Shown here piece by piece: positions 256 through 49,961 of a stretch of DNA of 64,000 nt. Position 1 is the first letter of the stretch; each line of letters starts with the position of its first letter. The notes below the pieces were generated by a model. That model was not told the origin of the DNA, did no database searches, and saw nothing but the letters and a program-made list of their open reading frames with translations. Source of the DNA: an uncultured delta proteobacterium (lineage in GTDB: Bacteria > Desulfobacterota > Desulfobaccia > Desulfobaccales > 0-14-0-80-60-11); contig CAVYJK010000020.1 in assembly GCA_963768765.1 (NCBI GenBank), positions 257,441-321,440 of the forward strand, read 5' to 3'. A program made the position numbers and the translations under genes.

Positions 256-415
256 TTTATGGGAGAAGGGCGTGAAAGGATCAGAGGGAAGTCAAGGGAC
301 TGATCGTTGCTTTCACCCGGCCGGGTTGCTTCGTTTGTTTATGATTCCCAGAATATGCCCACCGGAGCCGGTGAGGCCTTTTCATTATGTTTTCCGGAAT
401 CAAGTTGGGGGGGGG

Positions 416-1522
416 TTATCTCCGGGTCGAATCCCAGGTCGTCTGCTGCAGGCCCAGCAAGTTTTTGAAAAAGCCGAACATAATAGCCAGATTAAGCAAG
501 ATAAAGTAGTAGAAGATATAAAGCGCTTTCCAGCGGATCCGGAAGCAACATACCACCGCCACTATCCCATATCCTAGACACTGAGTCACGAAAAGTGGGT
601 GGTACCGCGGGTGGGTCAAAAGCATGGCGTTGCTCAGGAAGGCCACCACGAGAAAGAACGGCCCCAGCCAGCGAAGCACCCGGTGGCTCAGGTAAAAGAA
701 GAAGCGCTTGCCATGGAGGGGGTTAAGCAGGCCCCTAAGATACACCAGGGCCCGAAAATGACCAGCCGCGTCCCTGACATGACGCCGGAATTCCTCGGAG
801 TCGGAGGTAATCTGTAGTTCTTCCGCCACCGCGTCTTCCGCATATACCACCGCGTGGCCCTGCTCAAAGATGCGCATGGAAATGGAAAAATCGTCGTTGA
901 TGGTGGTGGGGGGCAATGGTTCGAACAACTCCCGCCTGAAGAGATAAATGGCGCCATTGGCCCCGATGACTGAACCGAAGAGGCTTTCCCTTTTCTTGAT
1001 AAAGGTTTCGAGGCGCCAGTAAATCCCCTCGCCCGAGGCACCGCCCCCATCCAGCAGCACCAGGCGACCGCATACGACCCCCACCCCTTCCCTCAGGTCC
1101 GCCAACAAGTAGCTCACCGCATCCGGGCGAAACATGCTATTGGCGTCGGTCATCACCACGTAAGGCTGCCAGACCCGCTCCAGGAGGGCATTGATAACGC
1201 GCACTTTGCCCCCCCGGGGGAATTCGAAGACCTTGACCCGGTTATCACGCATGGTCCGATGAATCTCGGCCATGGTGTTGTCGCTGCATCCATCCAGGCC
1301 CAGGTACAATTCGACTTCGGGATAATCCAGAAGATAGAAGTTCTCAATCTTGCGGGCGATGACCTTCTCCTCGTTATAGACCGAACAGACTATTGCCACC
1401 GGTCCCAGCGCTCCGGGCCTCCGCTTTTTTGGTTTCCTGGGGCGAAGGAGATACAGCACCCCGGGATAAATAAGATGGGGATAAAGGATGAGTAGGACGG
1501 AAACCCAGAAGACCAGTTCCAT
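416..1522 (-). CDS. Membrane-anchored family 2 glycosyltransferase
   Basis: 368-aa ORF with an N-terminal TM segment, a GT-A core (VAIVCSVYNEEKVI, LDGCSDNT, MTDAN) and several C-terminal TM helices. Stop/start is coupled to the next gene at 1522. Confidence 0.8.
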   Translation of the reverse strand: MELVFWVSVLLILYPHLIYPGVLYLLRPRKPKKRRPGALGPVAIVCSVYNEEKVIARKIENFYLLDYPEVELYLGLDGCSDNTMAEIHRTMRDNRVKVFEFPRGGKVRVINALLERVWQPYVVMTDANSMFRPDAVSYLLADLREGVGVVCGRLVLLDGGGASGEGIYWRLETFIKKRESLFGSVIGANGAIYLFRRELFEPLPPTTINDDFSISMRIFEQGHAVVYAEDAVAEELQITSDSEEFRRHVRDAAGHFRALVYLRGLLNPLHGKRFFFYLSHRVLRWLGPFFLVVAFLSNAMLLTHPRYHPLFVTQCLGYGIVAVVCCFRIRWKALYIFYYFILLNLAIMFGFFKNLLGLQQTTWDSTRR

Positions 1523-2988
1523 TATGAGTGTTTCCTGAACAGGTGGTTTGCCAGCGTAGTTGCGGCCTTGACGGTGCGGCCGATTTCTCCGGGATTTCGC
1601 AGTATGTCTAGTGCCTTATGAGCCAGGTACCAGGACCGCAGGTAAAAGCGGCGTCGGGCATAATCGCAGAAGTCGACCAAATCACGGGCAGACAACTTTT
1701 CGGTATGAAGAACGCAGTTATGCATCCCATCGGGGGTAAGCCATTGGCCAAAACTGGTTGCCCGGATGTAGCCTTTCTCTTTGGCCCAGAGATAGGCCTC
1801 GGTCCCGGGATAAACCATGAGCGGGAAAAACTGGGCCGTGTCCAAAGGAAGGCGCAGGGCAAAGTCCAGGGTGCGGCGTAACGTCTGCCGGTCCTCGCCC
1901 CGGTTGCCCATCATAAAACACCCGTGCACTCGGAGTTCGGCCTTTTGGGCATTGCGGGCAAATTCGTCCGACTGCTCCAGAGTTATGCCCTTATTAATAT
2001 TATCCAGCACTGTCTGGTCTCCGCTTTCGAATCCTGCCACCAGGAGGCGGCAGCCGGCCTGCTTCATCTTCACCATGATTTCATAACGGAGATTGACCCT
2101 GGCTTCACAGGTCCAGGTAACGATCAGGCCCCGGCGGATGATCTCGTCGCAGATCCGGGCGACGAAATCCTGGTCGGCCGTGAAGTTGTCGTCATCTATC
2201 AAGATCTCCCGGACTTCCGGAAACTCACGGCGGATATAGTCGAGCTCGTCCACGAAATGGGATACCGAGCGGTGCCGGTAGCGCCGTCCGAACATGACCT
2301 GGGGATACACGCAGTAGAAGCAACGATTCGGGCATCCCCGGCCCGCAAAGATGGAGATCACCGGATTGCGGCAGTGGGCGTAAAAGTAGTTGGCAATATT
2401 AAGATGCTTTTGGTAAACGCTGCTCACAAAAGGGAGCTCGTCGAGATCTTCGGCGAAGGGTCGGTCCGGGTTGTGCACGATGCGGCTTTTGCGGCGGAAG
2501 CTGATGCCGGTGACGTCCTCCCAGCGCTCCGGCTCCTCGGCCAGTTCGCACAAGGTCCAGTCGTACTCCCTCCTCGCTACCACGTCCACCGCGAGGCTGA
2601 GGGCCAGGGTTTCATCCGGCAGGGCGCTGGGATGGGTGCCCACCAGCACGGCCAGAGGCGGTACGGGAAACCAGGACTTGACCGTCTCCAGGGCCCGAAC
2701 GTCTGAATCGATGCTGGGGGTGGAGGTGTCGCAGACCACCATGCCGGGTGCAAACTCCTCAATTCTTTGACGCCGGTCCCCCAGTTCTTGGCCCTCGGCC
2801 GGAAAGTCGAGGAACATCACCTCGTGTCCCCGCTTCTCCAACAATCCCGCGGCATGCGCCAGCCACAGGGGATAATAAATGGTGCCGCTCTTGGTCACCG
2901 CCGGGCTGCGGGAACTGCGGGAGAACTTGGGCAGAAAGGGGGGATTAATCAGAAGGACTTTCATGGTGTATCTATTTACCAGTGACAA
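1522..2988 (-). CDS. B12-binding domain radical SAM enzyme (1 of 3)
   Basis: 488-aa ORF. It has an N-terminal Rossmann-like B12-binding region (KVLLINPP...) and a CxxxCxxC cluster motif, GRGCPNRCFYCVYP. Confidence 0.85.
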   Translation of the reverse strand: MSLVNRYTMKVLLINPPFLPKFSRSSRSPAVTKSGTIYYPLWLAHAAGLLEKRGHEVMFLDFPAEGQELGDRRQRIEEFAPGMVVCDTSTPSIDSDVRALETVKSWFPVPPLAVLVGTHPSALPDETLALSLAVDVVARREYDWTLCELAEEPERWEDVTGISFRRKSRIVHNPDRPFAEDLDELPFVSSVYQKHLNIANYFYAHCRNPVISIFAGRGCPNRCFYCVYPQVMFGRRYRHRSVSHFVDELDYIRREFPEVREILIDDDNFTADQDFVARICDEIIRRGLIVTWTCEARVNLRYEIMVKMKQAGCRLLVAGFESGDQTVLDNINKGITLEQSDEFARNAQKAELRVHGCFMMGNRGEDRQTLRRTLDFALRLPLDTAQFFPLMVYPGTEAYLWAKEKGYIRATSFGQWLTPDGMHNCVLHTEKLSARDLVDFCDYARRRFYLRSWYLAHKALDILRNPGEIGRTVKAATTLANHLFRKHS

Positions 2989-4021
2989 AAATTAGGCGTA
3001 CGTCCCACGGGTTCAACGCCAGCCGCCCGCCGGGTACCGGCTTGTCGGGGTGCTTCGGGTCGTTTAGGGTCCAGGGGCCGGGGAGCATGGCAGCCTCAAT
3101 TTTTTGCAGCCCCGGGTTACAGACAATTAGCAACGTGCGGTCGTCCTTCCTCCAGGCCGCCGCGTGCGGATGATTGGTATAGGTTTTCGGGTCAACTTGC
3201 TCCCCAGCCAGATACTCCCTCATCCCTTTCAGTTCGCCTATCAGAGCCGCAACATGACCCAAGTTTCTATACTCTACGGGTAAGGTCTGGAAGGAGAAGA
3301 AAAAAACGCCCCTGGCCCCCTTCATCACCCCGTAAAAGGCCATGAACCGCATCTCCTCAGTGGTGGGGTGGCGGTTATCCCGCCGTCTCTTGTCAAATTG
3401 GAGATAGTGGTTCCAGTTAAAGGTTTGGACCAGGACGCAAAAGGGGTTCTTTGCCTCCAGGAACTGGTCAATCCGGCGAATCTCAGAGCCCAGATCTTGA
3501 TGGGGAAAAGGCTGGTCCTTGACCGGATATGTATATGCAAAGACCCTGTCTGCCAGGGCGGCAAAGGGGGTGGCGTCGGTGGCGATGACCAGGGGGTGGC
3601 CGGCATCCTCCCGCCGGATAGCCGCGGCGATCCCCGCCACCTGATTAAGCATGGCCATCTTCGGCTCGTCGCACAGATACCAGGCCCACAGCGCAGGATG
3701 GGCCCGGAACCGGCGCACCCGCTCCACCACTTTGGAGACCGTGTAATTCTCCTGGCGCTCAAAGCCCACCATCACCTTCAGGCCCAGGTGGTGAGCCTCA
3801 TCCAAATATGCAGCCAATTCGTCGTCCTTGTCCCGGCCTTCCTCGAAGCGGTAGTTGTGCACCACCTCGAATCCCTTCATCTTGCCAAGATACAGCAGGT
3901 CCCGAGGGACCGCGAACACGCCCAGGGGCAATCGCTCCCTGCCGGGGGGGGACACCTCCCCCATGGCCAGCCTGGTTGGCGTTAACGCCAGGGCGCCCAG
4001 GAGAACAAGGGATAGCAGCAA
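2972..4021 (-). CDS. Secreted TIM-barrel glycoside-hydrolase-like protein (possible EPS glycanase)
   Basis: Signal peptide MLLSLVLLGALALTPTRLAMG. Alternating beta/alpha pattern with HHLGLKVMVGF and WAWYLCDEP, typical of clan GH-A-like hydrolases. EPS loci often carry such an enzyme. The assignment is tentative. Confidence 0.45.
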   Translation of the reverse strand: MLLSLVLLGALALTPTRLAMGEVSPPGRERLPLGVFAVPRDLLYLGKMKGFEVVHNYRFEEGRDKDDELAAYLDEAHHLGLKVMVGFERQENYTVSKVVERVRRFRAHPALWAWYLCDEPKMAMLNQVAGIAAAIRREDAGHPLVIATDATPFAALADRVFAYTYPVKDQPFPHQDLGSEIRRIDQFLEAKNPFCVLVQTFNWNHYLQFDKRRRDNRHPTTEEMRFMAFYGVMKGARGVFFFSFQTLPVEYRNLGHVAALIGELKGMREYLAGEQVDPKTYTNHPHAAAWRKDDRTLLIVCNPGLQKIEAAMLPGPWTLNDPKHPDKPVPGGRLALNPWDVRLIFVTGK

Positions 4022-4245
4022 TGTCAGCTTAGGCAGCGGTTCCTCTAGTTTAAGGGAATCTCTGATTTGTCATTGGGAAGAAACACCTTTGGGTTAAGCA
4101 CGATAGGGTTGGCCGTGGGAGGTGCGGCAATGGCTTTGATGGAAATATCTTGACTTAACCGGCAGAGATCTCTTGGAAACTGAGAAAGCAGGGCGTCCGT
4201 CATGATAGAGATCGGCCTATGCGGTCGAAAACCAGAGAAAAATAA

Positions 4246-5370
4246 TTAGTTGCATGGCTCCAGGGCCAGAACGGTATGAATAGACGAACGCACCAGGTCC
4301 ACTGAAATTCCCTCTAAGCAGCGAACCCGGTCGAAGGGGCAGACCGTCTGCCAACAGGGGGTGCAGAAGGAGCGCCCCTGGACCATTACCGCCTTGTTGG
4401 AACGGACGCCAAACAGGGCGGCCTCCTGGGGCCCGTAGAGCACCAGGCAGCGGGCCCCTGAAGCCGCCGCCAGATGAGCCGGGCCGCTGTCATTGCCAAG
4501 GAAGAGTTCCGCCCGATTACACAACGCCGCCAGTTCCCCTAAGGAAAGCTCCCCGGCAAAAAAATTTAGGGGAAAAGGAGTCGGGCCGTATTGGCGAAGG
4601 GTAACCATGTCCTCAGGGCCACCAACCAGGCAAATCTCCAGGTTTAGGTCCTGGTAAAGATGGGTGCAGATTTCCTTCCAGCGATCCCAAGGCCAGGCGC
4701 GGGGAGCCCACTTCCCAAAGGGATGAAACACGGCCAGTCGCTTCCCTTCAATGCCTTTGGACCGGAGCTTAGGCGCCAGCAAATCCTGCCATTCCCGCCG
4801 CACCTTCAAGCGCGGCCCATCTGGCAAATCGATGCCCAGGGGCCGCATCATCCTGCGGAAAGTATCATACTGGTGCTCCCGGGATGACGGCGCTGGCAAC
4901 CCGAGATAATAAAGCGGCCCCCAGCGCAGGCGGCTGCGGCGCGGCAGGCCGCAGAGAAATCGGGCTGCACGGTTTTTCCAGGCAGTGTGCACGGCCCGGG
5001 CGCTGCCGCGCAAGTGGATGATAAGATCAGCCTCTTCCTCGAATGATGTCCCCCACTGGTTGCGGGGATCAGCTTCCACAACTCCGAGTGGCTGAAACCG
5101 GAGTTCCGGGGAAAAGGTCTTAAAAAACTCCCGGGCTAATTTTCCTGCGGCAACAGATATCTGAGCCCGGGGCCAGCGTCGGCGCAAGGCTTCAAGAAGT
5201 GGGAGCGTCAGAACCGCATCCCCAAGCCCCCCTGCTTGGAAGACGCTAATGCAATTGTAGTCGGAAGAAGAGGTTCCCAGAAATTCTCTTAGGCGACAGG
5301 CAGCGAACCCAGCCCAGGAGATGGCCGCCCGGCGGATGGCATCCGCATACCATGGCATAAACTTCAACAC
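4246..5370 (-). CDS. Family 9 glycosyltransferase (heptosyltransferase-like)
   Basis: 374-aa ORF with the GT9 hallmark LFLGNDSGPAHLAAASGARCLVLYGP near the C-terminus. Confidence 0.8.
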   Translation of the reverse strand: MLKFMPWYADAIRRAAISWAGFAACRLREFLGTSSSDYNCISVFQAGGLGDAVLTLPLLEALRRRWPRAQISVAAGKLAREFFKTFSPELRFQPLGVVEADPRNQWGTSFEEEADLIIHLRGSARAVHTAWKNRAARFLCGLPRRSRLRWGPLYYLGLPAPSSREHQYDTFRRMMRPLGIDLPDGPRLKVRREWQDLLAPKLRSKGIEGKRLAVFHPFGKWAPRAWPWDRWKEICTHLYQDLNLEICLVGGPEDMVTLRQYGPTPFPLNFFAGELSLGELAALCNRAELFLGNDSGPAHLAAASGARCLVLYGPQEAALFGVRSNKAVMVQGRSFCTPCWQTVCPFDRVRCLEGISVDLVRSSIHTVLALEPCN

Positions 5371-6233
5371 CTAAACCTCCGCCTATTGGCCCTTGCCTTA
5401 ATAAACTCGGTGAACCCGACGCAGTTACCCATCACTACGGTGACATGCAGCAAGGTTCTGTGCCACCGCAGAGTTAAAGCATACTGCACTACCCGCAGAC
5501 AGGGTTTGGTCAGCGCCCAGACCAGCGTGGCGAGCATCTGGTAATTGGCAAAATCCACCAGATGGCGAGCAAAGAGCGCCCCCTGCCCGCGGCCGTAGGC
5601 CAGAAGCTTTTGGCGCAGTTCCCGGGGCGCCCGATCCACCGGCTCCCGGGGATGGTGAACCACGGCGGCGGGAACGTAAGCGATCCGGCAGTTCCAGTAC
5701 ATCATTCTGAAAAAATAGTCCGTTTCCTCTCCCGAGGCCCAGCGGCGGCCGGCGCCGAAACGCTCGTCGAACGGACCGATTTCATCAAACACGGCGCGCC
5801 GTATGGCGAAATTGCCGCCCAGGAAACGCAGCCAGTCACGCTGACCGAGATGCCGGGGCGTGCCATCATGCACGCGGGCGTAAGGCCGCCCGTCTTCCAG
5901 GGCCAGGATGCGCCCTGCCGCGGCCACCACCTGGGCGTCTTCCTCGAAGCACTTTTCCAGGGCCGGAATATAGCCGGAATCGGGGACCGCATCGTCGTCC
6001 AGAAAAGCAATGACATTGCCTGCCGCGGCGCGCACGCCGGCATTGCGCCCGGCGGCTAGCCCCCGTTCATGGTGAGGTAGGTGGCGGAATCGGAGATCGC
6101 CGGGGATGGGGGCGGGAGTATCCCCTTGATCCACTACCAGCACTTCAAACGCGCCCTTGTGCCCGGCGAGAGCCTCAAGACAGCGCCTCAGCAATTCAGG
6201 GCGGTTGCGGGTACAGACAACGACACTCAGCAT
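5364..6233 (-). CDS. Family 2 glycosyltransferase
   Basis: MLSVVVCTRNRPELLRRCLEAL followed by FLDDDAVP (DxD). This is a typical soluble GT2. Confidence 0.8.
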   Translation of the reverse strand: MLSVVVCTRNRPELLRRCLEALAGHKGAFEVLVVDQGDTPAPIPGDLRFRHLPHHERGLAAGRNAGVRAAAGNVIAFLDDDAVPDSGYIPALEKCFEEDAQVVAAAGRILALEDGRPYARVHDGTPRHLGQRDWLRFLGGNFAIRRAVFDEIGPFDERFGAGRRWASGEETDYFFRMMYWNCRIAYVPAAVVHHPREPVDRAPRELRQKLLAYGRGQGALFARHLVDFANYQMLATLVWALTKPCLRVVQYALTLRWHRTLLHVTVVMGNCVGFTEFIKARANRRRFRC

Positions 6234-6355
6234 TTCGGACTCTTTTTAAATTTTTCCTACCTTATTCAAGACAACCTTTTATCAACGGCAACATCTACCC
6301 AACGGCTGGAGGGCGTGAGATTTTACTTCCGGTGGGAATTTGGCGCCAATTTGCT

Positions 6356-7753
6356 TTATCCGGCTTTTTGTTGGGACAGCAGCCGTTTCAGCCGCAGCCA
6401 ATGGGGGATAAGGCTATGGCCGAAAGGCAAGGCCTTGATCGTATCCTTTGCCAGCTCGAAAAAGGCCTTTGTCGGAGAGGTCCTGATGAAAACCAGGAAC
6501 TTGAACAAGCGTTGGGCCAGGCGTATCTGCCAGGCGGGAAAGCCGGGCAGGCGCAGCACGCTGCCGGCGAAGTAGCTGGCCGCGGCGCCGTTTTGGCGCA
6601 CCAGGCCGCGCTCATAGCAGGAGTCCCCCAGCGCCGTTCCCCGAAACGGGTAATAGACCGTCATCTGCACCTGGTCCGGACGGATACGGCGGTTGAGGGC
6701 CACGGTCTTCAGGTAGTCGGGCCAGCGTTCGCCGGGAACCCCCACCATGTTAAACGTGGATAGGCGCAGGCCCGCGGCCCGGATGGTATCTGCAGCGCGA
6801 ATAATGGCCTCATCGCTCATGCCCCGGTTGAGCACGGTGCGGCGCAGCTCTTCATTGCCGCTCTCACACCCCAAGGCCACGGTATCGCAGCCGCCGTCCT
6901 TGAGGAGACGGCAGCCCTCCGGCGTCACAGTTTCCGGCCGGGTGTTGCAGTGGAAGGGCCGCCCCACTGAACTGCGGTAGCCTTTCAGGAATGTGGCCAG
7001 CCACCGGGGATTCTTGGTAAAGGTGTCATCATCGAAATTCAGATATGGGGGCTGAAACAGGGAAACATATTGCACCGCGCGCCGTACCGCCCGCTCGGGG
7101 GAAAGAAAGCGTAACTTGACCGTTCCCAGGCGCTTCTTGTAAGCGGCATTGCAGCAGTAGCTGCAGTTATACGGGCATCCCCGGGAAAACATCAGGCCGG
7201 GATAGTTCAGCACCACTTCCCGAGGATAGAGGTCATAGGCCGGCTCGGCCAGGGCGTCCAGATCGGCGGGGATAGGCGCCGCCCCCGCCGGGACGATTCC
7301 TCCCGAGGGTGAGCGCGTCCAGACGCCGGGCAGACCGGCAAACGACTCCCGGTGCGCAGCGCGCCTGGAAAGGGCGGCGATGACCCCCTCTCCTTCCCCC
7401 ACTACGAACCCATCGAAGGCATCGGTACCGGCCAAGGCTTCGGGGAAAAGGGAACAGTGGGGACCCCCGCCCACCACGGGAATGGCGCAACGTTGCCGCA
7501 AAGCCCGGGCCGCGGCCATCGCAAACTCCCATTGGTTGGAATACACGGAGATGCCCGCCAGGATATAGTTTTCCTCCGCGGCTTTTTCAAGCCACTGCCC
7601 GGAATGGTAAGAGCCGGAATCAAGCACCACAATATCCGGGGTGAACCCCGCGGCGCGCAGCGTCCCGGCCAGGGAGGCCAGGCCATGATTGACGTAGACT
7701 ACGGTATCCTGCATCGCCACGTTAAGCTGTAGCAGAAGCACCCTGGCGGTCAT
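6356..7753 (-). CDS. B12-binding domain radical SAM enzyme (2 of 3)
   Basis: Motif SRGCPYNCSYCCN with an N-terminal B12-like domain. The likely start is M52 of the tracked ORF (ATG at 7753), forming an ATGA overlap with the upstream GT2 stop at 7750. Confidence 0.85.
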   Translation of the reverse strand: MTARVLLLQLNVAMQDTVVYVNHGLASLAGTLRAAGFTPDIVVLDSGSYHSGQWLEKAAEENYILAGISVYSNQWEFAMAAARALRQRCAIPVVGGGPHCSLFPEALAGTDAFDGFVVGEGEGVIAALSRRAAHRESFAGLPGVWTRSPSGGIVPAGAAPIPADLDALAEPAYDLYPREVVLNYPGLMFSRGCPYNCSYCCNAAYKKRLGTVKLRFLSPERAVRRAVQYVSLFQPPYLNFDDDTFTKNPRWLATFLKGYRSSVGRPFHCNTRPETVTPEGCRLLKDGGCDTVALGCESGNEELRRTVLNRGMSDEAIIRAADTIRAAGLRLSTFNMVGVPGERWPDYLKTVALNRRIRPDQVQMTVYYPFRGTALGDSCYERGLVRQNGAAASYFAGSVLRLPGFPAWQIRLAQRLFKFLVFIRTSPTKAFFELAKDTIKALPFGHSLIPHWLRLKRLLSQQKAG

Positions 7754-14034: not shown

Positions 14035-14062
14035 GTTGGCTCCGGTCCGTGGCCGGACGGCT

Positions 14063-15162: not shown

Positions 15163-15257
15163 AGTAAGGTGTCGTGGCTAGCAAATGGATTCCGCCCAGG
15201 CCTGCCTTGCGGTAACTGTGAAAGTGGCCATTCAATACCAGTTATTATAAGTAAACA

Positions 15258-15992: not shown

Positions 15993-16038
15993 TAGTAAAT
16001 CTCCATTATTGGGGGTATCAACTACTCGCCAATTCAAA

Positions 16039-17604
16039 CTAACATCTTGAAAAAACCTGGCGAGTATTGAGCCGTTGCCATAATCTCTGGCGGACCGGAC
16101 TGGACAATCCCAAGACACCGCAGCCAATGCCGCCTATCAGGGCAACCAGGGCACTAGTTTCCACAAGCCCCCACCAAGTGGTTGCGGAAAAAGTATAATG
16201 CCAGCGGACCCAAGCCCAACCGGTCATCGCCAGGCCGAAAACTCCTAACGGCCGGGCCATCTGGCGCAGGTGCTGACCGATCGGTAGGCCGGTATAGCGG
16301 CGGAGCAAGAACTGGTAAGTGCCCCATAGTCCTCCTTGGCCCAGCGCCACACCCAGCGGAATGCCGGCATAACCGAGCAAGCTCGTCAAACACCAGCCAA
16401 CCAACAATCCGAAGATGGACCAGGCAATCCCCATGGTCTCCTTGGGATAAAGGTGCAGTGAAGCATCCAGGGGGATGCCGTCTATCTGCACCATTTGGCG
16501 GAAAGACGTATGAAGCACGATGGCGACATCGAGTAGTGGTCCACCATAAAAGCGCTCACCGACCCACAGGTGAACAAAAAGATGATTGCAGGACAGAACG
16601 ATGGCGGCCATAACGCCAAAGCCCCATAAGGCCATCTGATGCAAATCCAGACGAAGAGCGGCCAGCCGGTGCCATTCGCCCTTCCCGCCCAGGAAGATAA
16701 TCCCCGCATTTCCTGAACGTAAAAGTTCTTGCAGCGGGTAAACCAGATACCGGATCAAGGCTCCGGTAATCATGTAAACGGCAGCTGCCGCGGTGCCGAA
16801 GCAATAGCCGAACAGAAGCACATCGGCCGAGTTGAGCAGGGCTCCCTTGGCGGCGCCCAGTGAACCCGGGAGGCTCAACCGTATGATGTCGTGAATTTCA
16901 ACCTTCCGGGGGCGCTCCACCCCGTACCAGGGCAGATTCCTTTGAGCAATGCGCAACCGAACCCCGTTCACCATAAGGATTCCGACTAAAGAGGTTACGG
17001 CGAGCATCACCAGGCCAAACCCGGCCATGACCCCCAGGGCATTTATGGCCCCGCCAATCAGCACCATAGCGGCGTTAAGTCCCATGGCCTTGTATTCCAG
17101 GTTCTGACCCGCCAATACTGAACCCGGTATCGAGCTGAGCTGCGCCAGAGGGATGCTGACCGTCATCAAGGCCATGGTCCAATAAACGGCTGTGAGGTTC
17201 TCCGGCGAGATGGGAACCAGGCGAGGAGCGAAAACAACCAGGAGGGCACCAACCAGTAACACTACGGGGAGAAAAATCAACCATTGCCAGACGGCTGCGC
17301 CGATCAAGCGCCGCTTCTCGGCAACATCCGGGTTGTGCTGCCGTACCCCAAGTACCAGCCTAAGTATCGAAGTGGCATTCAGATCCGCCAGTCCTAAAAA
17401 GCCCGTCATGCCCGTGATCATTCCCCAAGCGCCGTAAAGTTCCTTGTCCAGCCCGCGTACAATGATGGGGGTAAATAACAGTCCCGCGGCCATTTGGGCG
17501 GCATGCGCCAGAATTTGAGAGCCAAATGTCAGCTTGGCTCGCCGGGTGAGGTCTTGGCTGAGGGCGGAAATAGTCATTGAATTCGGTCTGCTCGGCATCT
17601 CCAT
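16039..17604 (-). CDS. Polysaccharide flippase (Wzx, MOP superfamily)
   Basis: About 12-14 TM helices throughout. The likely start is MEMPSRPN at 17604, because the longer ORF overlaps the upstream pseudogene. Confidence 0.75.
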   Translation of the reverse strand: MEMPSRPNSMTISALSQDLTRRAKLTFGSQILAHAAQMAAGLLFTPIIVRGLDKELYGAWGMITGMTGFLGLADLNATSILRLVLGVRQHNPDVAEKRRLIGAAVWQWLIFLPVVLLVGALLVVFAPRLVPISPENLTAVYWTMALMTVSIPLAQLSSIPGSVLAGQNLEYKAMGLNAAMVLIGGAINALGVMAGFGLVMLAVTSLVGILMVNGVRLRIAQRNLPWYGVERPRKVEIHDIIRLSLPGSLGAAKGALLNSADVLLFGYCFGTAAAAVYMITGALIRYLVYPLQELLRSGNAGIIFLGGKGEWHRLAALRLDLHQMALWGFGVMAAIVLSCNHLFVHLWVGERFYGGPLLDVAIVLHTSFRQMVQIDGIPLDASLHLYPKETMGIAWSIFGLLVGWCLTSLLGYAGIPLGVALGQGGLWGTYQFLLRRYTGLPIGQHLRQMARPLGVFGLAMTGWAWVRWHYTFSATTWWGLVETSALVALIGGIGCGVLGLSSPVRQRLWQRLNTRQVFSRC

Positions 17605-17660
17605 AACCGACTTCGCGGCTTCCCGGTCTTGGTGATTGGCAAGTGCCTGGGGCACGCACT

Positions 17661-18230
17661 TTATTCCTTTCGGGCGACACACAGCCGCATCTGTGCCAGG
17701 TAGGCATAGAGCGGAGTGGCGTCCAGCGCCAGTCGCACGGCAACCGCGGCCCGGGGAAATGAGCCAAACAACCGGCTTAGTGCCGGCCAGCGCAGCTTCA
17801 GGCCGAACTCGGAGCCGTACCCATATTGTTCTTTTACGGCAAAACCGTTTTTATTTAGAAGGGCCTCAAACTCCCTCGGGGGAAAAGCATATTGGTAAAA
17901 CGAGAAATCTTCGGTCAGTGGTTGCAGCCCGACTTCACGTAGGCGAGACCCACGCAGTCATAGCCCCGGACCCGTAAGGAAACCACGTATTGGGCTTTGC
18001 CACAACTGGCTTCCAGTATTTTGCCATCGCGGGGAAGCCGAAGCCGCATAATCTGGGCGAGCCTGCCACGGCCGATATACCCTTAGAGGTAAGGAGTGTA
18101 AAACTGCGGACTATCGCAGGCGCGCCAGTGCTCTTCCCCAAAGGTGCGGCCCATACTACGCCGATAATATACCAGCCTGGGACTTTCAAAACGCACCACT
18201 ACAGCGCTTCTTCCGCTCATAGTGAAATCC
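17661..18230 (-). pseudogene. Decayed class I methyltransferase remnant (frame breaks plus internal deletion)
   Basis: Three frames must be read in succession. First MSGRSAVVVRFESPRLVYYRRSMGRTFGEEHW..., then ...PRDGKILEASCGKAQYVVSLRVRGYDCVGL (motif I/post-I), then TEDFSFYQYAFPPREFEALLNKNGFAVKE... (MT C-terminus). Motifs II-III between them are absent. Confidence 0.5.
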
Positions 18231-18287
18231 TTGGCATCCCGTTCTCCGGAAAAACCCCGCGTCTTCTTGACCTCACTCAAATTGTCT

Positions 18288-19292
18288 TTAGACAGAGGCG
18301 TCATTGTTCCCAGCAAACCTTTCCCGGAACCATACCTGATGCCAAGAACGTCTTGGCACCTCGCAAACCGCGGAAACCGGATAACCAATGGCAATCGCGG
18401 CGCCTACAAAGATATAGGGCGGCAGCTGAAGTTGACTGTAAACTTTCCGCTGCCCTTGCATGTGCATATCGGAGATCAGCGAGACCCAACATGCGGCAAG
18501 CCCCAGGGCATGAGCCATGAGCAACATATTCTGGGTGGCTGCAGCGACATCTTGCGCCATAACCAGGTGCTGTTCAAACGGCTTGTAGTGGCGGCGGTCA
18601 ACAGCCACCACAATCGCCGTCGGAATTGCAGCTCTCCAATCACGCGCTCCCAAGGCAGCCCCAAATACCACGTCAATGGTTTGTCGGTCAGTTGTGCTAA
18701 CTAAGGCGAGTGGCTGAGCATTGCAGCTACTGGGGGCGTATCGTCCCGCCTCGACCACCTGCTCTATTAAGGGGGCCGCAACCGGCTCCGGCTGGAATTG
18801 CCTGATACTCCGCCTCTGAACAATTACCCTGCGGACGATCTCGGCTGCTTCCGGTGACGGCTGCTCGAAAGGAACTGTCTGCATAAAGCACTGAAAATCA
18901 TTGGGGTAGGCCGCATATTCGCGCATTATTTTATTGAGGTAGGGCAGACAGGGGTCGCTGAGGCCCGTCGGGCTGGCCACATATGATTTCAACGTCTTAA
19001 AAATAGAATCGCGTTCGGGACCACGTGGCAGCTTTAAGCTAATGGCCTTTTCCAAATAATGAGCACGCTTGAAGTTAAAGTGTGATTCCAGAGAGGCATC
19101 AATCTGATCGCGGTACCTGGCGGCGTAGAGCGCTTGTTTTTCCCCGTAGCGAAGGAACCTTATAAAAACAGGCCAGAAATGGCGCGGTGGCACTAGATCA
19201 AAGTAATAGATCAGACGCTCCCTCACCCTATTCAGGAAATCCGGCTTATTCGAGGTTCCGCAGGATACCAGCTTTGGCTCGCTTTTCACCAT
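18288..19292 (-). CDS. Nitroreductase-fold protein with an extra N-terminal domain
   Basis: The C-terminal ~190 aa read IVQRRSIRQFQPEPV...YAPSSCNAQP...IGYP, typical of the FMN nitroreductase family. The N-terminal ~140 aa are uncharacterised. Confidence 0.75.
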   Translation of the reverse strand: MVKSEPKLVSCGTSNKPDFLNRVRERLIYYFDLVPPRHFWPVFIRFLRYGEKQALYAARYRDQIDASLESHFNFKRAHYLEKAISLKLPRGPERDSIFKTLKSYVASPTGLSDPCLPYLNKIMREYAAYPNDFQCFMQTVPFEQPSPEAAEIVRRVIVQRRSIRQFQPEPVAAPLIEQVVEAGRYAPSSCNAQPLALVSTTDRQTIDVVFGAALGARDWRAAIPTAIVVAVDRRHYKPFEQHLVMAQDVAAATQNMLLMAHALGLAACWVSLISDMHMQGQRKVYSQLQLPPYIFVGAAIAIGYPVSAVCEVPRRSWHQVWFRERFAGNNDASV

Positions 19293-19372
19293 GGTCCTGA
19301 CTCATCTAGAGTTTAAGCAGCAAGGGGCGCCTTGCCAAACCGAAAGGCCGGCAAACCGACTTTCAGGGGGAA

Positions 19373-20774
19373 TCAACGATCCTTGAGCAGCTCCCGCAAG
19401 ACCTGATTCTCATAGACTGATGACTCCTCTTCGGCAAGGAGAATGAGTCCTTTTAAGAGCAAGGCGTTGTACTTTGGGTCAACCATGTTTACGGGGAGAA
19501 TTATGGGGTTTCCTTTCCTATCAACATGAGTACAGAAACCATTCTCCACTCGATGAAATCGAAGGGCATTTTCCATCAGGCCGCGAGAACCTTGAAGATA
19601 GCCCGCATCACCGGTCAACTCACCTAGTCCGTCGCAGTGAAACGGCAAAATCCACCTGATGATCAAGATGATCCCGATCACTTCCCTCATACATCGGCAG
19701 CAAACCATTGGCCCATTGATTCGCGAGCTGACTTTCGGCAACGCCCATGGCCCAATTCAGATATTTCTGGTCCCGGTCAACAAACCAATAGGTGTCGCAT
19801 AAAACGTCAATCAATATGAAGGTGTTTACCAGACCTGGTTTATCAACCTGCCCATTCCTATAGTAACGGCCATATACGGTTCCATCTTTTACCAGTTTGG
19901 AGAAACATGCATTAATCCAATGGGTGATATGCTCTCGATAGCAGCTGTCGCCTGTTAACAGAAACAGTTCAATTAAAGTGAAGATCATCGTGGTATTGCT
20001 CTTCATCAATTGGACAAAATGTCCTGAGCTGGCGTATAAATAAAAGTTCTTGCGAGCTTGATATTTGATCCGGCGTAGGAGAGATGTTTGTTGTTCTGCG
20101 GGAAGTATAGGACAATCCTTTTTATAGGTTTTCCGACTGGCATTCAGTTGCCCCAAAAAGTAATAAAATGGACGGTTTGAACTGCGGTAGGGGAACAAGC
20201 CTTCTTTGAGATAAAACCGGTTGTCAAGCCAGCGATGTACTATACCAACCACAAGGTCCAACAAATTGGGGTAAATATCCAGCATCTCCAGAAAAGTTTC
20301 AAGCAGACCGGACGACCAGGGTGAAGAGTAAGGAGATGATTTCTTGGCGGCAAGATCATAGAACTCCAGCAGGACACCATCTGTCACAAAGTAATTCATA
20401 CATTTGGCTACCGCATCATCCAGCAGGCTTTTTACCTGCGGGCTGTTTGTTCTGCGGAAGAGACTGTGCATCCCTCCTAAGTACTCGTCAATAAGATAGG
20501 AATAGATAATATTATTAAAAGGCAAGAGTGCATCAAAAGGATCGGGGCCTAACCTTGTTATTTGCTCAAGCAAGAAATCAATTTCGCCGTAGTAAAGAAA
20601 GAATGGCGCCAAGTCATCAAAATTGTCAAAAATGGTGCGGTCCGAAACCGGGTAAGTGCGGGAAATGAGACCTTTGTCATTCAGATAATGGCTCTTGAAG
20701 TTCTCAATAATCCACGCAGCGATCTCCTGGCAACTCTCTCCCTTCAAGGTGCTGGCAGTCCCCGGCAGACTCAT
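19373..20774 (-). CDS. (alpha/alpha)6-toroid-like protein (AGE/glycoside-hydrolase-like), apparent frame break near 19.64 kb
   Basis: There are recurrent L-x-L-x-x-TGD-x-x-Y helix-pair motifs (LIELFLLTGDSCYREH, and after the break LGELTGDAGYLQG). ORFs 19620-20774 and 19373-19741 join as ...DHQVDFAVSL/..GLGELTGD. AT-rich. Confidence 0.5.
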
Positions 20775-22216
20775 CGAGATCCTCCATCAAACCGCATGGT
20801 AAGTTGCTTCCGAATAATGCGGCGGTCCAAAAGAAACCGCAGCGGGTGGCGCAGCATATAGTTTCGCCTCCCAGTACGGATAGTCTCTGTCTCAAAAGTG
20901 CGTATTATTTCCATGCGGGATAGAAAATCTTTTGTTTCCATCGCCGAAAAATTCATGGTGGCGGAATGATGGTAATAACTGCCGTAGTCCGGTTTATCCG
21001 GGATCTTGCCAGCGCGCCGCAATTCATCCCAAAGTCCGGTGCCCGGGTAGGGGGTGAAAACACTGAAGAGGGGGTTATCCGGCGCCAGGGCCCGGGCTAG
21101 CGCCAAGGTCTCGTCCATTTCTGGCCCGGTTTCCGTTGGCAGGCCGGTCATAAAATAGGCGGTCACCCGAATGCCGCACCGCTTAAGCATACGGACCAGC
21201 CGCCGTGCCTTGGCAATGTCCACCTTTTTGGCGACCAGGTTGCGAATGCGTTCCGAGCCGCTCTCGATGCCTAGATTGATCTGATAACATCCGGCCGCCC
21301 GCATTTTCTGGGCCAGCCCTTCCTCCAGGAGGTCAACCCTGGTATCGCAGCTCCAGCGAGCGCCGGGAAAATTTTTCATCCCGTCGCAGAAAGCCAGGAC
21401 CCGGTCTGCCCTGATGGTGAAAGTATCGTCTTGGAGACGGAAAAGCCGCACCCCCTCACGGTAGAGGCCGGCTATTTCTTCCAGAACCCGGGAGACGGAA
21501 CGGATCCGCACCCGTCGCGTCCAGAGCTTCTTGCTGGCACAGTACAGGCAAGGGTAGGGACAGCCGCGGCTGGTGATGACCCCGCCCAGATCCGCCGGTA
21601 TGTGGGAGTCCCGATCGATGAGACCTCGGTAGGAGGGTAGCGGCAAGGCATCGAGGTCTTCTATTAAAGGGCGTTTGGCAGTACACGTGACGGCGCTGGC
21701 CCGGCGATAAGCGATACCGGCGACGGTTTCCGGATTACCCCCGGAGGCGAGGAGAGCAAAGAGGGCCGCGGCCGTTTCTTCTCCTTCACCGATTGCCACA
21801 TAATCGAAACACTTATATTCGAGCACTTCTTCAGGAACCAGGGTAGGATGAACCCCGCCCACTACAACCGGCACCGATGCATCCTCTACACGTACAATCT
21901 GCGCCACGACGCAGGCTGAAGGGAACTCGGCGGTCATCGAGGTGATGCCCACGGCCTCCGGCCGGATCCGCCGCAGTACCGCACGCAGGCGCTGATATGC
22001 CGGATGCTCTTCGTCAGGCGTTCCTTGTCTTCCGATGAGCGTTGATTCCCGGTAACGGGGTCCGTTGCCGTACAGGTCGCCGTTGAAGAGGGCGACTTCG
22101 TGCCCTTGGCTTTCGAGCACCCCGGCAATTGCGGCAAGGCCCAACGAGACCGTCCCCACGTTGACCCCATGCAGGGTGTACCAGGGAGGGTCAATTAACA
22201 GTATTTTCACCGACAC
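20771..22216 (-). CDS. B12-binding domain radical SAM enzyme (3 of 3)
   Basis: Motif SRGCPYPCLYCAS. N-terminal B12-binding-like domain (KILLIDPPW...). Confidence 0.85.
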   Translation of the reverse strand: MSVKILLIDPPWYTLHGVNVGTVSLGLAAIAGVLESQGHEVALFNGDLYGNGPRYRESTLIGRQGTPDEEHPAYQRLRAVLRRIRPEAVGITSMTAEFPSACVVAQIVRVEDASVPVVVGGVHPTLVPEEVLEYKCFDYVAIGEGEETAAALFALLASGGNPETVAGIAYRRASAVTCTAKRPLIEDLDALPLPSYRGLIDRDSHIPADLGGVITSRGCPYPCLYCASKKLWTRRVRIRSVSRVLEEIAGLYREGVRLFRLQDDTFTIRADRVLAFCDGMKNFPGARWSCDTRVDLLEEGLAQKMRAAGCYQINLGIESGSERIRNLVAKKVDIAKARRLVRMLKRCGIRVTAYFMTGLPTETGPEMDETLALARALAPDNPLFSVFTPYPGTGLWDELRRAGKIPDKPDYGSYYHHSATMNFSAMETKDFLSRMEIIRTFETETIRTGRRNYMLRHPLRFLLDRRIIRKQLTMRFDGGSR

Positions 22217-43820: not shown

Positions 43821-43838
43821 TGATACTGCCCTCCAGTA

Positions 43839-49951: not shown

Positions 49952-49961
49952 CGAACACCTC

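What the first reader, a model, noticed from the sequence alone, without database searches (positions are those of the whole stretch)
416..22216. EPS locus with three B12-binding radical SAM enzymes, three methyltransferase genes and a nitroreductase-fold protein
A Wzx/Wzy-type cluster normally contains glycosyltransferases and a few sugar-nucleotide enzymes. This one interleaves three paralogous B12-rSAM genes (CPNRCFYC at 1522-2988, CPYNCSYC at 6356-7753, CPYPCLYC at 20771-22216). It also has two intact class I methyltransferases, one decayed methyltransferase and a two-domain nitroreductase-like protein. Class B rSAM enzymes methylate unactivated carbon or phosphorus centres. Three of them inside a glycan locus suggests unusual C-methylated or otherwise tailored sugars, or tailoring of a lipid or peptide moiety, that has not been characterised.
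Basis: partly seen in the sequence, partly recalled or inferred. Interest (0 to 1): 0.6.

Follow-up and report, generated by a model that had tools for sequence, protein, structure and literature searches.

The report
Radical SAM enzymes paired with glycosyltransferases
A surface-sugar gene cluster from an anaerobic bacterium carries three different B12-type radical enzymes, two fused in operon order to specific sugar-adding enzymes; one of these pairs recurs beside the pathway's starter enzyme in hundreds of species yet has never been studied.

Summary
About 27 co-directional glycan genes (window 1-28824, minus strand) include three intact B12-domain radical SAM (rSAM) genes, two intact class I methyltransferases, one decayed methyltransferase and a nitroreductase-fold protein.

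The rSAMs share just 24-28% identity, so they are three subfamilies and not recent paralogues. All three stay in glycan loci in relatives, and related loci carry four or five.

rSAM-1 is the sister family of HpnJ, a sugar ring-contracting non-methylase (37% identity; 387 bits, cutoff 577.6). Its best structural match is AprD4, a sugar diol-dehydratase. "Three C-methylases" therefore does not follow.

The new result is a conserved module. In at least 572 species genomes, rSAM-1 is followed directly by a membrane GT2 (29/34 loci versus 8/100 at other flanking positions, p=3.5e-17). A priming phosphoglycosyltransferase lies within 3 kb in 42/80 loci. rSAM-2 always follows its own GT2.

The most likely role is radical tailoring of sugars on lipid-linked intermediates. 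The chemistry is unresolved.

Six other genes in the locus are frameshifted, split or deleted, so it may be decaying here. No publication on this was found.

The parts
1..270 (-). N-terminus of a WecA/MraY-family (Glycos_transf_4) priming phosphoglycosyltransferase. It runs off the window start and has an apparent 1-nt frameshift near 190-200.
   Evidence: It is 71% identical over 58 aa to the gene after GT2a in the Desulfobaccales MAG L005. That gene matches PF00953 at 94 bits.
416..1522 (-). GT2a, a membrane GT2 with one N-terminal and three C-terminal hydrophobic segments. It is the conserved partner of rSAM-1, and its start overlaps the rSAM-1 stop (TAATG).
   Evidence: Pfam GT2 families including Glyco_transf_21 at 36 bits. 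TM scan, junction, adjacency statistics.
1522..2964 (-). rSAM-1, a B12-domain radical SAM protein (480 aa, CPNRCFYC). It belongs to the sister family of HpnJ.
2972..3964 (-). Exported protein of unknown family (330 aa). It has an N-terminal signal-like hydrophobic segment and a weak GH2 TIM-barrel hit. In many relatives another B12-rSAM occupies this slot.
4246..5358 (-). GT9 (heptosyltransferase-family) glycosyltransferase.
   Evidence: PF01075 at 79 bits. A GT9 recurs upstream of rSAM-1 in other phyla.
5364..6233 (-). GT2b, a soluble GT2. In relatives it is followed by a fourth rSAM subfamily that is absent from this window.
6356..7753 (-). rSAM-2, a B12-domain radical SAM protein (465 aa, CPYNCSYC). 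This is a rare subfamily. Its start overlaps the GT2c stop (ATGA).
7750..8697 (-). GT2c, a soluble EpsE/TuaG-like GT2 and the conserved upstream partner of rSAM-2.
8694..9413 (-). MT1, an intact class I SAM methyltransferase. It forms a conserved MT1-GT2c-rSAM-2 triplet.
9410..12611 (-). Three GT4 glycosyltransferases (9410-10477, 10474-11541, 11538-12611).
12601..14034 (-). Wzy-type polymerase or O-antigen ligase family membrane protein.
   Evidence: PF04932 at 52.8 bits against a cutoff of 31.7. 11 hydrophobic segments.
14063..15162 (-). GT4 split into N- and C-terminal ORFs. The same split occurs in relative L004.
15258..16127 (-). MT2, an intact class I methyltransferase (Methyltransf_23/CmoB-like).
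16039..17682 (-). Polytopic membrane protein and candidate flippase. The Wzx assignment is not verified.
   Evidence: No Pfam or NCBIfam hit. At least 8 hydrophobic segments. hhalign probability against three flippases is 1.3%.
17664..18154 (-). Decayed class I methyltransferase, with a 72-aa internal deletion and a frame change.
18288..19292 (-). Nitroreductase-fold protein with an unassigned 150-aa N-terminal part. It is not found with the rSAMs in relatives.
19373..20774 (-). Protein of about 466 aa from a small family with weak (alpha/alpha)6 glycoside-hydrolase-like hits. It is frameshifted near 19625. Its start overlaps the rSAM-3 stop.
20771..22216 (-). rSAM-3, a B12-domain radical SAM protein (481 aa, CPYPCLYC). 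It has no GT2 partner in the window or its close relatives. Of the three, it is the most similar to the C-methylase QCMT/MgmA.
22491..24452 (-). PglF/WbpM-type UDP-HexNAc 4,6-dehydratase, interrupted by two or three frameshifts.
24622..26635 (-). BY-kinase-like P-loop protein (24622-25323) and a GNVR/EpsF-like chain-length determinant (25304-26635).
26950..28117 (-). Wza-type outer-membrane exporter (Poly_export plus SLBB), frameshifted near 27470.
28234..28824 (-). NusG/KOW-family antiterminator-like gene at the head of the cluster.

Best explanation
This is a Wzy-dependent surface-polysaccharide locus of an anaerobic, Desulfobaccales-like bacterium. Three non-orthologous B12-domain radical SAM enzymes are built into the assembly line as partners of particular glycosyl-transfer steps.

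- rSAM-1 forms a translationally coupled pair with a membrane-embedded GT2 next to the WecA-type priming transferase. This three-gene initiation module is conserved across bacterial phyla and DPANN archaea.
- rSAM-2 forms a conserved methyltransferase-GT2-rSAM triplet.
- rSAM-3 is a stand-alone member of a subfamily that also stays in glycan loci.

Inferred mechanism: each rSAM uses a 5'-deoxyadenosyl radical to abstract a hydrogen from an unactivated C-H of the sugar its partner GT has just placed on the polyprenyl-phosphate-linked intermediate. This happens at the cytoplasmic face of the membrane, before flipping and polymerisation.

For rSAM-1 the outcome is most likely a change to the carbon skeleton. 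That could be an HpnJ-type ring contraction or rearrangement, or a MoeK5-type C-methylation. An AprD4-type dehydration is less likely. For rSAM-2 and rSAM-3, C-methylation is the leading guess. The class I methyltransferases add O- or N-methyl groups.

Shown here: gene content, family placement, conserved adjacency and distribution. Inferred: the substrate (a lipid-linked sugar), cobalamin use and the reaction type.
For: Gene content and domain hits.

Distinct subfamilies: the three rSAMs share 24-28% identity, and cross-family bit scores confirm this.

rSAM-1 versus HpnJ:
- 387 bits on the HpnJ model over its full length.
- 37% identity to a genuine HpnJ located in an hpnI-hpnJ-hpnK operon.
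- HpnJ keeps 55% of the positions invariant in the rSAM-1 family, against 30-44% for the other subfamilies.

rSAM-1 family distribution: 572 confirmed matches among species genomes, at 48-82% identity for the 80 best.

Adjacency around rSAM-1:
- A GT2 lies immediately downstream in 52/73 loci.
- In the census, GT2 occupies position +1 in 29/34 loci against 8/100 at other flanking positions, Fisher p=3.5e-17.
- A priming transferase lies within 3 kb in 42/80 loci. The Pfam census found 14 Bac_transf and 5 Glycos_transf_4 among 134 neighbours.
- The window's left edge encodes a WecA-type N-terminus.

Other subfamilies:
- rSAM-2 orthologues are preceded by GT2c in 4/4 loci, and again in L087.
- rSAM-3 relatives at 71%, 38% and 36% identity all lie in glycan loci.

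Coupling: overlapping stop/start codons at the junctions.

Architecture: GT2a has the same membrane GT2 architecture and Pfam family set as HpnI.

Structure: the rSAM-1 model has the class B fold, and its top match is a sugar-modifying rSAM.

Literature: HpnJ and MoeK5 both act on sugars attached to lipid-anchored substrates and co-cluster in sequence networks (PMC9204698).
Against: - No rSAM reaches any curated family cutoff, so the chemistry is not assigned.
- GT2a is not an HpnI orthologue. It gives no BLAST hit to HpnI and no HpnI NCBIfam hit, and its GT21 score is 36 bits against 144 for HpnI.
- No YdjC or PIG-L deacetylase (the HpnK analogue) is present in the window.
- HpnJ lacks four cysteines that are invariant in the rSAM-1 family, so the mechanisms may differ.
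- The best structural match, AprD4, does not bind cobalamin (PMC12931638), so B12 use is unproven.
- No cobalamin riboswitch was found in the window.
- rSAM-3 has no GT2 partner in the window, L002 or L087.
- Six other genes of the locus are frameshifted, split or deleted, so the pathway may not be functional in this organism.
- HpnJ's own reaction is known only from a knockout (PMC13459092).
Confidence: 0.55

Rival explanations
1. One reading: all three enzymes are cobalamin-dependent class B C-methyltransferases, and the polymer carries several C-methylated (branched) sugars in addition to O-methyl groups.
For: - All three have B12-binding domains above the Pfam cutoff.
- Most characterised class B enzymes are methylases (PMC9204698, PMC12931638).
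- rSAM-3 scores 129 bits on the MCR glutamine C-methyltransferase model and 71 bits against its crystal structure 9CCB.
- HpnJ co-clusters with the C-methylases Fom3 and MoeK5.
- SAM-dependent methyltransferases accompany the rSAMs here and on the Lawsonia plasmid.
Against: - No methylase family cutoff is met.
- The closest named family for rSAM-1 by a wide margin is the non-methylase HpnJ.
- The closest solved structure for all three is the non-methylase AprD4.
- Class B includes several non-methylases: HpnJ, BchE, OxsB and ThnL.
Confidence: 0.22
2. The rSAMs carry out AprD4-like, cobalamin-independent radical dehydration (or epimerisation) of sugar diols, producing deoxy or epimerised residues. 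The N-terminal Rossmann domain is a structural relic.
For: - AprD4 is the best PDB hit by sequence for all three (E=1e-24, 7e-29 and 7e-13).
- AprD4 is also the best full-length structural match for rSAM-1 (TM 0.74/0.78).
- AprD4 acts on a sugar ring and lacks cobalamin (PMC12931638).
Against: - NCBIfam AprD4 scores (102, 46 and 112 bits) are far below the cutoff of 500 and below the HpnJ, BchE and ApyD scores.
- The sequence matches cover only the rSAM core.
- No AprD3-like reductase partner is evident.
- The B12-binding Pfam scores are above the gathering threshold, whereas true HpnJ scores only 23 bits.
Confidence: 0.12
3. In this organism the locus is a decaying remnant. The rSAM genes are intact by chance or recent history, and no tailored polymer is made here.
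For: - Disruptions affect the priming transferase, the PglF-like dehydratase (two or three shifts), Wza, the six-hairpin-like gene, a methyltransferase (72-aa deletion) and a GT4.
- Most frameshift sites are not in long homopolymers.
- An independent Logan contig matches 8.66 kb of the window with no gaps, so the assembly is not generally prone to indels.
Against: - The independent contig does not cover any frameshift site.
- The other genes examined, about 20 including all the rSAMs, all the GT2s and Wzy, are intact.
- The GT4 split is shared with a relative about 76% identical at DNA level over this gene, so it may be a functional two-part enzyme.
- MAG consensus errors or strain mixtures cannot be excluded.
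- Even if true, this does not alter what the module is in relatives with intact loci.
Confidence: 0.4
4. The rSAMs modify something other than the glycan, such as the lipid carrier, a membrane lipid or a peptide, and are merely co-located with glycan genes.
For: - Close named families include lipid-modifying enzymes (HpnJ, a ladderane-type lipid rSAM) and the RiPP enzyme ApyD.
Against: - No precursor peptide or lipid-synthesis genes are present in the locus.
- Position-specific coupling to GT2 (p=3.5e-17) and to priming transferases holds across phyla.
- Start and stop codons overlap with GT genes.
Confidence: 0.07

Closest known systems
HpnI-HpnJ-HpnK branch of hopanoid biosynthesis (bacteriohopanetetrol cyclitol ether formation; HpnJ = TIGR03471)
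   Same: - Both have a B12-domain rSAM next to a membrane GT2 with Glyco_transf_21-type signatures.
- rSAM-1 aligns over its full length with HpnJ (37% identity, 387 bits).
- It shares 23 positions found in no other local subfamily.
- The substrate in the known system is a sugar attached to a lipid.
   Different: - The score is below the family cutoff of 577.6.
- GT2a is not an HpnI orthologue.
- Gene order is reversed.
- There is no HpnK-type deacetylase and no hopanoid genes.
- The partner is a polyprenyl-phosphate priming transferase within a polysaccharide locus.
- Four cysteines invariant in the rSAM-1 family are absent from HpnJ.
- The hosts are strict anaerobes and DPANN archaea.
Sugar-tailoring class B rSAM methylases of natural products (MoeK5 in moenomycin, GenK/GenD1 in gentamicin, Fms7)
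   Same: B12-domain rSAM enzymes acting on unactivated sugar carbons. MoeK5 acts on a lipid-anchored phosphoglycolipid and co-clusters with HpnJ (PMC9204698).
   Different: Those enzymes sit in secondary-metabolite clusters, not in Wzy-type surface-polysaccharide loci. No sequence-level membership could be shown here, because no models for MoeK5 or GenK are in the libraries used.
AprD4 (radical SAM 1,2-diol dehydratase of apramycin biosynthesis, PDB 6FD2)
   Same: It is the best solved-structure match for all three proteins. It has the same two-domain architecture of about 450-480 aa and a carbohydrate substrate.
   Different: Identity is 23-24% in the structure-based alignment. The NCBIfam score is far below cutoff. 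AprD4 lacks cobalamin and works with the reductase AprD3, which has no counterpart here.
QCMT/MgmA (methyl-coenzyme M reductase glutamine C-methyltransferase, PDB 9CCB, TIGR04014)
   Same: A compact class B architecture of about 450 aa. It is the closest cobalamin-binding solved structure by sequence for all three, most clearly rSAM-3 (71 bits; 129 bits on the family model).
   Different: Its substrate is a protein. The score is below the cutoff of 360, and the genomic context is unrelated.
Wzx/Wzy-dependent EPS and O-antigen loci with PCP-OPX export (for example EpsF-type PEP-CTERM-associated EPS loci)
   Same: Wzy, GT4 and GT2 sets, a PglF-like dehydratase, a WecA-type primer, a GNVR chain-length determinant with a separate kinase, Wza and a NusG-like antiterminator.
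   Different: Embedded B12-rSAM genes coupled to GT2 genes are not part of the described paradigm. The flippase is not recognisable by any profile.

Membership tests
Cobalamin-dependent (class B) radical SAM enzymes | CX3CX2C cluster motif within a Radical_SAM (PF04055) core | tested here: met
   CPNRCFYC, CPYNCSYC and CPYPCLYC. PF04055 scores 67.9, 75.0 and 84.0 bits against 29.5.
Cobalamin-dependent (class B) radical SAM enzymes | N-terminal B12-binding Rossmann domain (PF02310) | tested here: met
   38.3, 46.5 and 70.7 bits against a cutoff of 32.1. The rSAM-1 model shows a Rossmann domain plus barrel and matches TsrM, MgmA, OxsB, CysS and TokK.
Cobalamin-dependent (class B) radical SAM enzymes | Actual binding of and dependence on cobalamin | not testable with these tools
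   AprD4, the best structural match, has the same domain layout but no cobalamin (PMC12931638).
HpnJ (TIGR03471) | Score at or above the equivalog cutoff of 577.6 bits | tested here: not met
   rSAM-1 387 bits, rSAM-3 143, rSAM-2 76. rSAM-1 is 37% identical to a genuine HpnJ.
HpnJ (TIGR03471) | Genomic association with hpnI, hpnK and hopanoid genes | tested here: not met
   The window has no YdjC-family gene. GT2a gives no HpnI hit by NCBIfam or BLAST. Neighbours in 34 loci are GT2, GT4 and priming transferases.
HpnJ (TIGR03471) | Ring contraction of a lipid-linked hexosamine | not testable with these tools
   Needs biochemistry. For HpnJ itself the reaction is inferred only from a knockout (PMC13459092).
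Characterised class B methylases (PhpK, HpnR, KedN5, TsrM, RiPP C-MT, MCR Gln C-MT, Sden_1168) | Score at or above each NCBIfam cutoff | tested here: not met
   The best results are 129 bits (rSAM-3, MCR Gln C-MT, cutoff 360) and 106 bits (rSAM-3, PhpK, cutoff 600). All others are lower.
AprD4 family diol-dehydratase (NF033070) | Score at or above 500 bits | tested here: not met
   102, 46 and 112 bits, even though AprD4 is the top PDB match.
Wzx/Wzy-dependent polysaccharide pathway | Wzy-type polymerase | tested here: met
   PF04932 at 52.8 bits against 31.7.
Wzx/Wzy-dependent polysaccharide pathway | Wzx (MOP-family) flippase | tested here: inconclusive
   The 492-547-aa polytopic protein at 16039-17682 has no Pfam or NCBIfam hit. 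hhalign against three Polysacc_synt proteins gives a probability of 1.3%, though the alignments are shallow.
Wzx/Wzy-dependent polysaccharide pathway | Polyprenyl-phosphate priming transferase | tested here: met
   A WecA-type N-terminus lies at window 1-270. It is cut off by the window edge and frameshifted.
Wzx/Wzy-dependent polysaccharide pathway | PCP and OPX export proteins | tested here: met
   GNVR/EpsF-like protein at 216 bits, an AAA_31 kinase-like protein, and Poly_export plus SLBB domains (the Wza gene is frameshifted).

The most novel reading that the evidence does not exclude
The triad of priming transferase, rSAM-1 and membrane GT2 is a widespread, ancient initiation module, present in at least 572 species across bacterial phyla and DPANN archaea. 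On this reading it installs a carbon-skeleton-modified residue at or near the reducing end of surface glycans of anaerobes. The residue would be a ring-contracted carbocyclic pseudo-sugar (as in hopanoid cyclitol ethers and archaeal calditol) or a C-branched sugar. This would be a class of glycan modification, and a substrate class for B12-domain rSAM enzymes, that has not been described. The recurring GT2-rSAM pairs would be a general 'add a sugar, then edit it by radical chemistry' logic in polysaccharide assembly.
Probability: 0.25. Interest if true: 0.8.

Novelty: new variant of a known kind. Interest (0 to 1): 0.6.

Why it matters
B12-domain radical SAM enzymes are known to edit sugars in a few antibiotics and in hopanoid head groups. 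Two recent reviews of the class (2022 and 2026) list no polysaccharide substrate.

This work shows that several distinct subfamilies are wired into cell-surface glycan assembly lines. One of them is highly conserved, at 48-82% identity across phyla, and is locked to a membrane GT2 and the priming transferase.

If these enzymes make C-branched, deoxygenated or carbocyclic residues, the surface glycans of many anaerobes contain chemistry that standard composition analysis would miss. Such chemistry could change acid or enzyme stability, antigenicity and phage recognition. Carriers include gut-associated lineages (Gastranaerophilales, Lachnospiraceae, Muribaculaceae MAGs) and the pig pathogen Lawsonia intracellularis.

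The finding also gives rSAM enzymology a defined, testable three-protein system with cultured sources.

Tried and rejected
- HpnI orthology of GT2a: rejected. There is no NCBIfam HpnI hit and no BLAST hit. Only the GT21-type architecture is shared.
- Nitroreductase as BluB (B12 lower-ligand synthase) or as a conserved rSAM partner: rejected. It scores 55 bits against a cutoff of 150, and no homologue appears in any related locus.
- Single-sequence AlphaFold model of the 384-aa protein: unusable (pLDDT 44). No fold search was run on it.
- Identifying that protein by profile: only weak (alpha/alpha)6 hits.
- Verifying Wzx by Pfam, NCBIfam and hhalign: no support.
- Exact look-ups of the window's own products (P0001 and the truncated Wza fragment) to test the frameshifts: not on record. 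The P0119 look-up also failed.
- The independent Logan contig L090 confirms 237-8897 without gaps but stops short of every frameshift site.
- Using the rest of the window as a control for frameshift rate: it is a mobile or prophage-like region with few recognisable genes.
- tRNA and Rfam scans: nothing found, and no cobalamin riboswitch.
- Five literature searches for a characterised B12-rSAM in LPS, CPS or EPS biosynthesis, plus term searches inside two reviews of the class: none found.
- A full phylogeny against characterised class B enzymes could not be built, because reference sequences other than HpnJ were not available. NCBIfam scores and PDB hits served as a proxy.

Full report
OBSERVATION

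The long ORFs between 416 and 22216 form a single co-directional chain on the minus strand.

- B12-domain radical SAM (rSAM) genes lie at 1522-2964/2988 (rSAM-1), 6356-7753 (rSAM-2) and 20771-22216 (rSAM-3).
- Each passes the gathering scores for Radical_SAM and for B12-binding.
- They carry the motifs CPNRCFYC, CPYNCSYC and CPYPCLYC.
- The start of rSAM-2 at 7753 is supported by a 465-aa protein identical over its whole length.
- Two class I methyltransferases are intact, at 8694-9413 and 15258-16127.
- The 'decayed methyltransferase' is real. Window 18154-17930 and 17945-17664 match residues 1-75 (71% identity) and 148-241 (67%) of an intact 242-aa homologue, in two different frames. Residues 76-147 are missing.
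- The nitroreductase-fold protein (18288-19292) has a C-terminal PF00881 domain and a 150-aa N-terminal part with no family hit.

EXTENT OF THE LOCUS

- Upstream lie a PglF/WbpM-type 4,6-dehydratase (22491-24452), a BY-kinase-like protein (24622-25323), a GNVR/EpsF-like chain-length determinant (25304-26635), Wza (26950-28117) and a NusG-like gene (28234-28824).
- Downstream, window 1-270 encodes the N-terminus of a WecA/MraY-family priming transferase that runs off the window. It is 71% identical to the gene after GT2a in a Desulfobaccales MAG, and that gene matches PF00953.
- Wzy is supported (PF04932).
- The presumed Wzx, a polytopic protein at 16039-17682, matches no profile and is unverified.

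SOURCE AND INTEGRITY

The nearest reference genome is a Desulfobaccales MAG, with 82% protein identity for rSAM-1 and about 80% DNA identity. An independent Logan contig (ERR12035932) matches window 237-8897 at 99.92% with no gaps.

Several genes other than the rSAMs are disrupted:

- the WecA-type gene, near 195;
- a GT4 at 14063-15162, split in the same way in relative L004;
- the methyltransferase with the internal deletion;
- the gene after rSAM-3, whose last 84 residues lie in another frame (19373-19741; 70% identity to an intact 465-aa homologue);
- the PglF-like gene, with two or three frame changes;
- Wza.

Most of these sites are not in long homopolymers. I could not decide between real decay and consensus errors, because no independent sequence covers any of the sites.

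WHAT THE rSAM PROTEINS ARE

The three share only 24-28% identity. They are separate subfamilies, not recent duplicates. None reaches the curated cutoff of any named family.

rSAM-1:
- It scores 387 bits over the full length of the HpnJ model (cutoff 577.6). The next best scores are BchE at 139 bits, and the methylases PhpK and HpnR at 82 and 75 bits.
- Against a genuine HpnJ taken from an annotated hpnI-hpnJ-hpnK operon, it is 37% identical.
- Members of its own family share 48-82% identity across phyla.
- HpnJ keeps 55% of the family's invariant positions, against 30-44% for the other local subfamilies. It lacks four family-invariant cysteines.
- rSAM-1 is therefore a sister family of HpnJ, not HpnJ itself.

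HpnJ is listed among the non-methylating cobalamin rSAMs. It is proposed, from a knockout only, to contract the glucosamine ring of a hopanoid glycoside into a cyclitol ether. In sequence networks it co-clusters with the C-methylases Fom3 and MoeK5 (PMC9204698, PMC13459092).

Structure comparisons:
- By sequence, the best solved structure for all three proteins is AprD4, a sugar 1,2-diol dehydratase.
- A confident model of rSAM-1 (pLDDT 83, pTM 0.85) also matches AprD4 best over its full length (TM 0.74/0.78). TsrM, MgmA/QCMT, OxsB, CysS and TokK follow.
- AprD4 does not bind cobalamin (PMC12931638), so B12 use here is likely but unproven.
- rSAM-3 is the most similar of the three to the true C-methylase QCMT/MgmA, at 129 bits on the family model and 71 bits against 9CCB.

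CONTEXT IN RELATIVES

That test fails, which supports a glycan role.

- Close relatives carry the same modules with even more B12-rSAM genes: four in L002 and five in L003 (also L004 and L087).
- rSAM-3 relatives at 38% and 36% identity lie in a Wzt-type ABC O-antigen locus and in a locus with MBOAT, GT4 and WecA genes.
- The rSAM-1 homologue in Clostridium sp. JS66 (54% identity) sits between a Bac_transf primer and a GT2, inside a Wzz/Wzx locus.
- A 45%-identical member sits on Lawsonia intracellularis plasmid 1. Its neighbours are GT2 genes, heptose-pathway-like genes, five class I methyltransferases and a second rSAM.

THE ORGANISING PRINCIPLE

rSAM-1:
- A scan of one genome per species found 572 confirmed matches of the family, spanning many bacterial phyla and DPANN archaea.
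- In the 80 best loci, a GT2 lies immediately downstream in 52 of the 73 loci with enough sequence, and immediately upstream in several others.
- In a Pfam/HMM census of the two genes on either side in 34 diverse loci, GT2 occupies position +1 in 29/34 loci. It occupies 8/100 of the other flanking positions (Fisher p=3.5e-17).
- A priming transferase (Bac_transf or WecA-type) lies within 3 kb in 42/80 loci. It usually sits directly before rSAM-1 or directly after the GT2.
- The window has this arrangement: rSAM-1, then GT2a (stop and start overlap, TAATG), then the WecA-type gene.
- GT2a is a membrane GT2 with four hydrophobic segments. It has the same Pfam family set as HpnI, but the Glyco_transf_21 score is 36 bits against 144 for HpnI, and there is no BLAST-level similarity. 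The resemblance is one of architecture, not orthology.

Other subfamilies:
- rSAM-2 orthologues are preceded by a GT2c-type GT2 in 4/4 loci, and again in L087.
- A class I methyltransferase lies upstream of that GT2, and in the window the GT2c stop and rSAM-2 start overlap as ATGA.
- A fourth subfamily follows the GT2b-type GT2 in relatives. It is absent from the window, where GT9 follows GT2b.
- A fifth subfamily sits in tandem just upstream of rSAM-1 in about ten loci. In the window that slot holds an exported protein of unknown family.

MECHANISM

Shown: the three rSAMs are intact; they belong to distinct glycan-associated subfamilies; two are translationally coupled to particular GT2 genes; and one of those pairs sits at the initiation step.

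Inferred: each rSAM edits the sugar its partner GT installs on the polyprenyl-phosphate-linked intermediate, at the cytoplasmic membrane face.

- For rSAM-1 the closest analogies are HpnJ and MoeK5, both of which act on sugars attached to lipid-anchored substrates. These point to a carbon-skeleton change, either ring contraction or rearrangement, or C-methylation. AprD4-type dehydration is a further option.
- A ring contraction of the first, pyrophosphate-linked sugar would be hard to reconcile with later polymerisation. The GT2a-added residue is therefore the more plausible target (inference).
- For rSAM-2 and rSAM-3, C-methylation is the leading guess, without strong support.
- I put about 0.55 on the general model. 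No single chemistry exceeds about 0.4.

ACCESSORY GENES

- The nitroreductase is not BluB (55 bits against a cutoff of 150) and is not found with the rSAMs elsewhere.
- The gene after rSAM-3 belongs to a small family of about 187 cluster representatives. It gives weak hits to (alpha/alpha)6 carbohydrate-active families.
- The exported protein upstream of rSAM-1 has only a marginal GH2 TIM-barrel hit.

NOVELTY

Five literature searches found no characterised B12-rSAM acting in LPS, CPS or EPS synthesis (and the HpnJ search). Term searches inside two reviews of the class (2022 and 2026) found no polysaccharide substrate either.

Sugar editing by this enzyme class is known from antibiotics and hopanoids. 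The wiring into surface-glycan assembly, the recurring GT2-rSAM pairs and the very widespread primer-rSAM-GT2 triad are not described. I therefore rate this a new variant of a known kind, with interest 0.6.

The finding would rank higher if the product proves to be a carbocyclic or C-branched residue. It would rank lower for this particular organism if the frameshifts are real.

Noticed in passing
window 1-28824 (sites near 195, 14600, 17940, 19625, 23800-24150, 27470): There are six disrupted genes in one glycan locus: the WecA-type gene, a GT4, a methyltransferase, the six-hairpin-like gene, the PglF-like gene and Wza. All the rSAM and GT2 genes are intact. Most of the sites are not homopolymers. 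The cause, real decay or consensus error, is unresolved.
   Followed up: partly
rSAM-1 residues C272, C305, C349, C433 (window 1522-2964, minus strand): Four cysteines beyond the CX3CX2C motif are invariant across the rSAM-1 family but absent from true HpnJ. They could be a second Fe-S site or hydrogen-donor cysteines. Their spatial clustering in the model could not be measured.
   Followed up: partly
L085 (Lawsonia intracellularis plasmid 1, NC_008012.1, locus 4621-19223): The small 27-kb plasmid of this pig pathogen is largely a glycan cassette. It carries a 45%-identical rSAM-1 relative, a second rSAM, five class I methyltransferases, GT2 genes, GalE and heptose-pathway-like genes (SIS, GHMP kinase, HAD).
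   Followed up: partly
window 12000-16000 versus 2000-10000: GC drops to about 50% over Wzy, the split GT4 and MT2, against about 60% in the flanking GT/rSAM block. This mosaic pattern is typical of exchanged central regions of polysaccharide loci.
   Followed up: no
window 38800-48000: An island with a DUF6946 protein, an HTH regulator, a 760-aa AAA_13 protein and several long ORFs without family hits in a 62-64% GC stretch. It may be a defence or mobile island.
   Followed up: no
window 49400-62400: A run of co-directional minus-strand ORFs. It includes an Amidase_2 (N-acetylmuramoyl-L-alanine amidase) and a Laminin_G_3/concanavalin-like protein, and most of the rest have no Pfam hit. It looks like a prophage or tailocin-like structural and lysis region.
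   Followed up: no
window 32415-33483: A nucleotidyltransferase (Polbeta/NTP_transf_2) ORF with a small adjacent ORF, in a low-GC (48.5%) segment. It may be an MNT/HEPN-type toxin-antitoxin pair.
   Followed up: no
L044 8100-9437; L037 11510-12916: In loci where rSAM-1 lacks a downstream GT2, the next gene can be a PIG-L/LmbE-type deacetylase (motif PHPDDE), which recalls the HpnK step. In another locus it is a WbaP-type priming transferase.
   Followed up: partly
L040, L058, L059, L084 (Candidatus Iainarchaeum MAGs): DPANN archaeal contigs carry rSAM-1 family members at 48-52% identity. In three of them (L040, L058, L059) a GT2 lies directly downstream; in L084 the next gene looks like a sulfatase. 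The module has crossed the domain boundary.
   Followed up: partly
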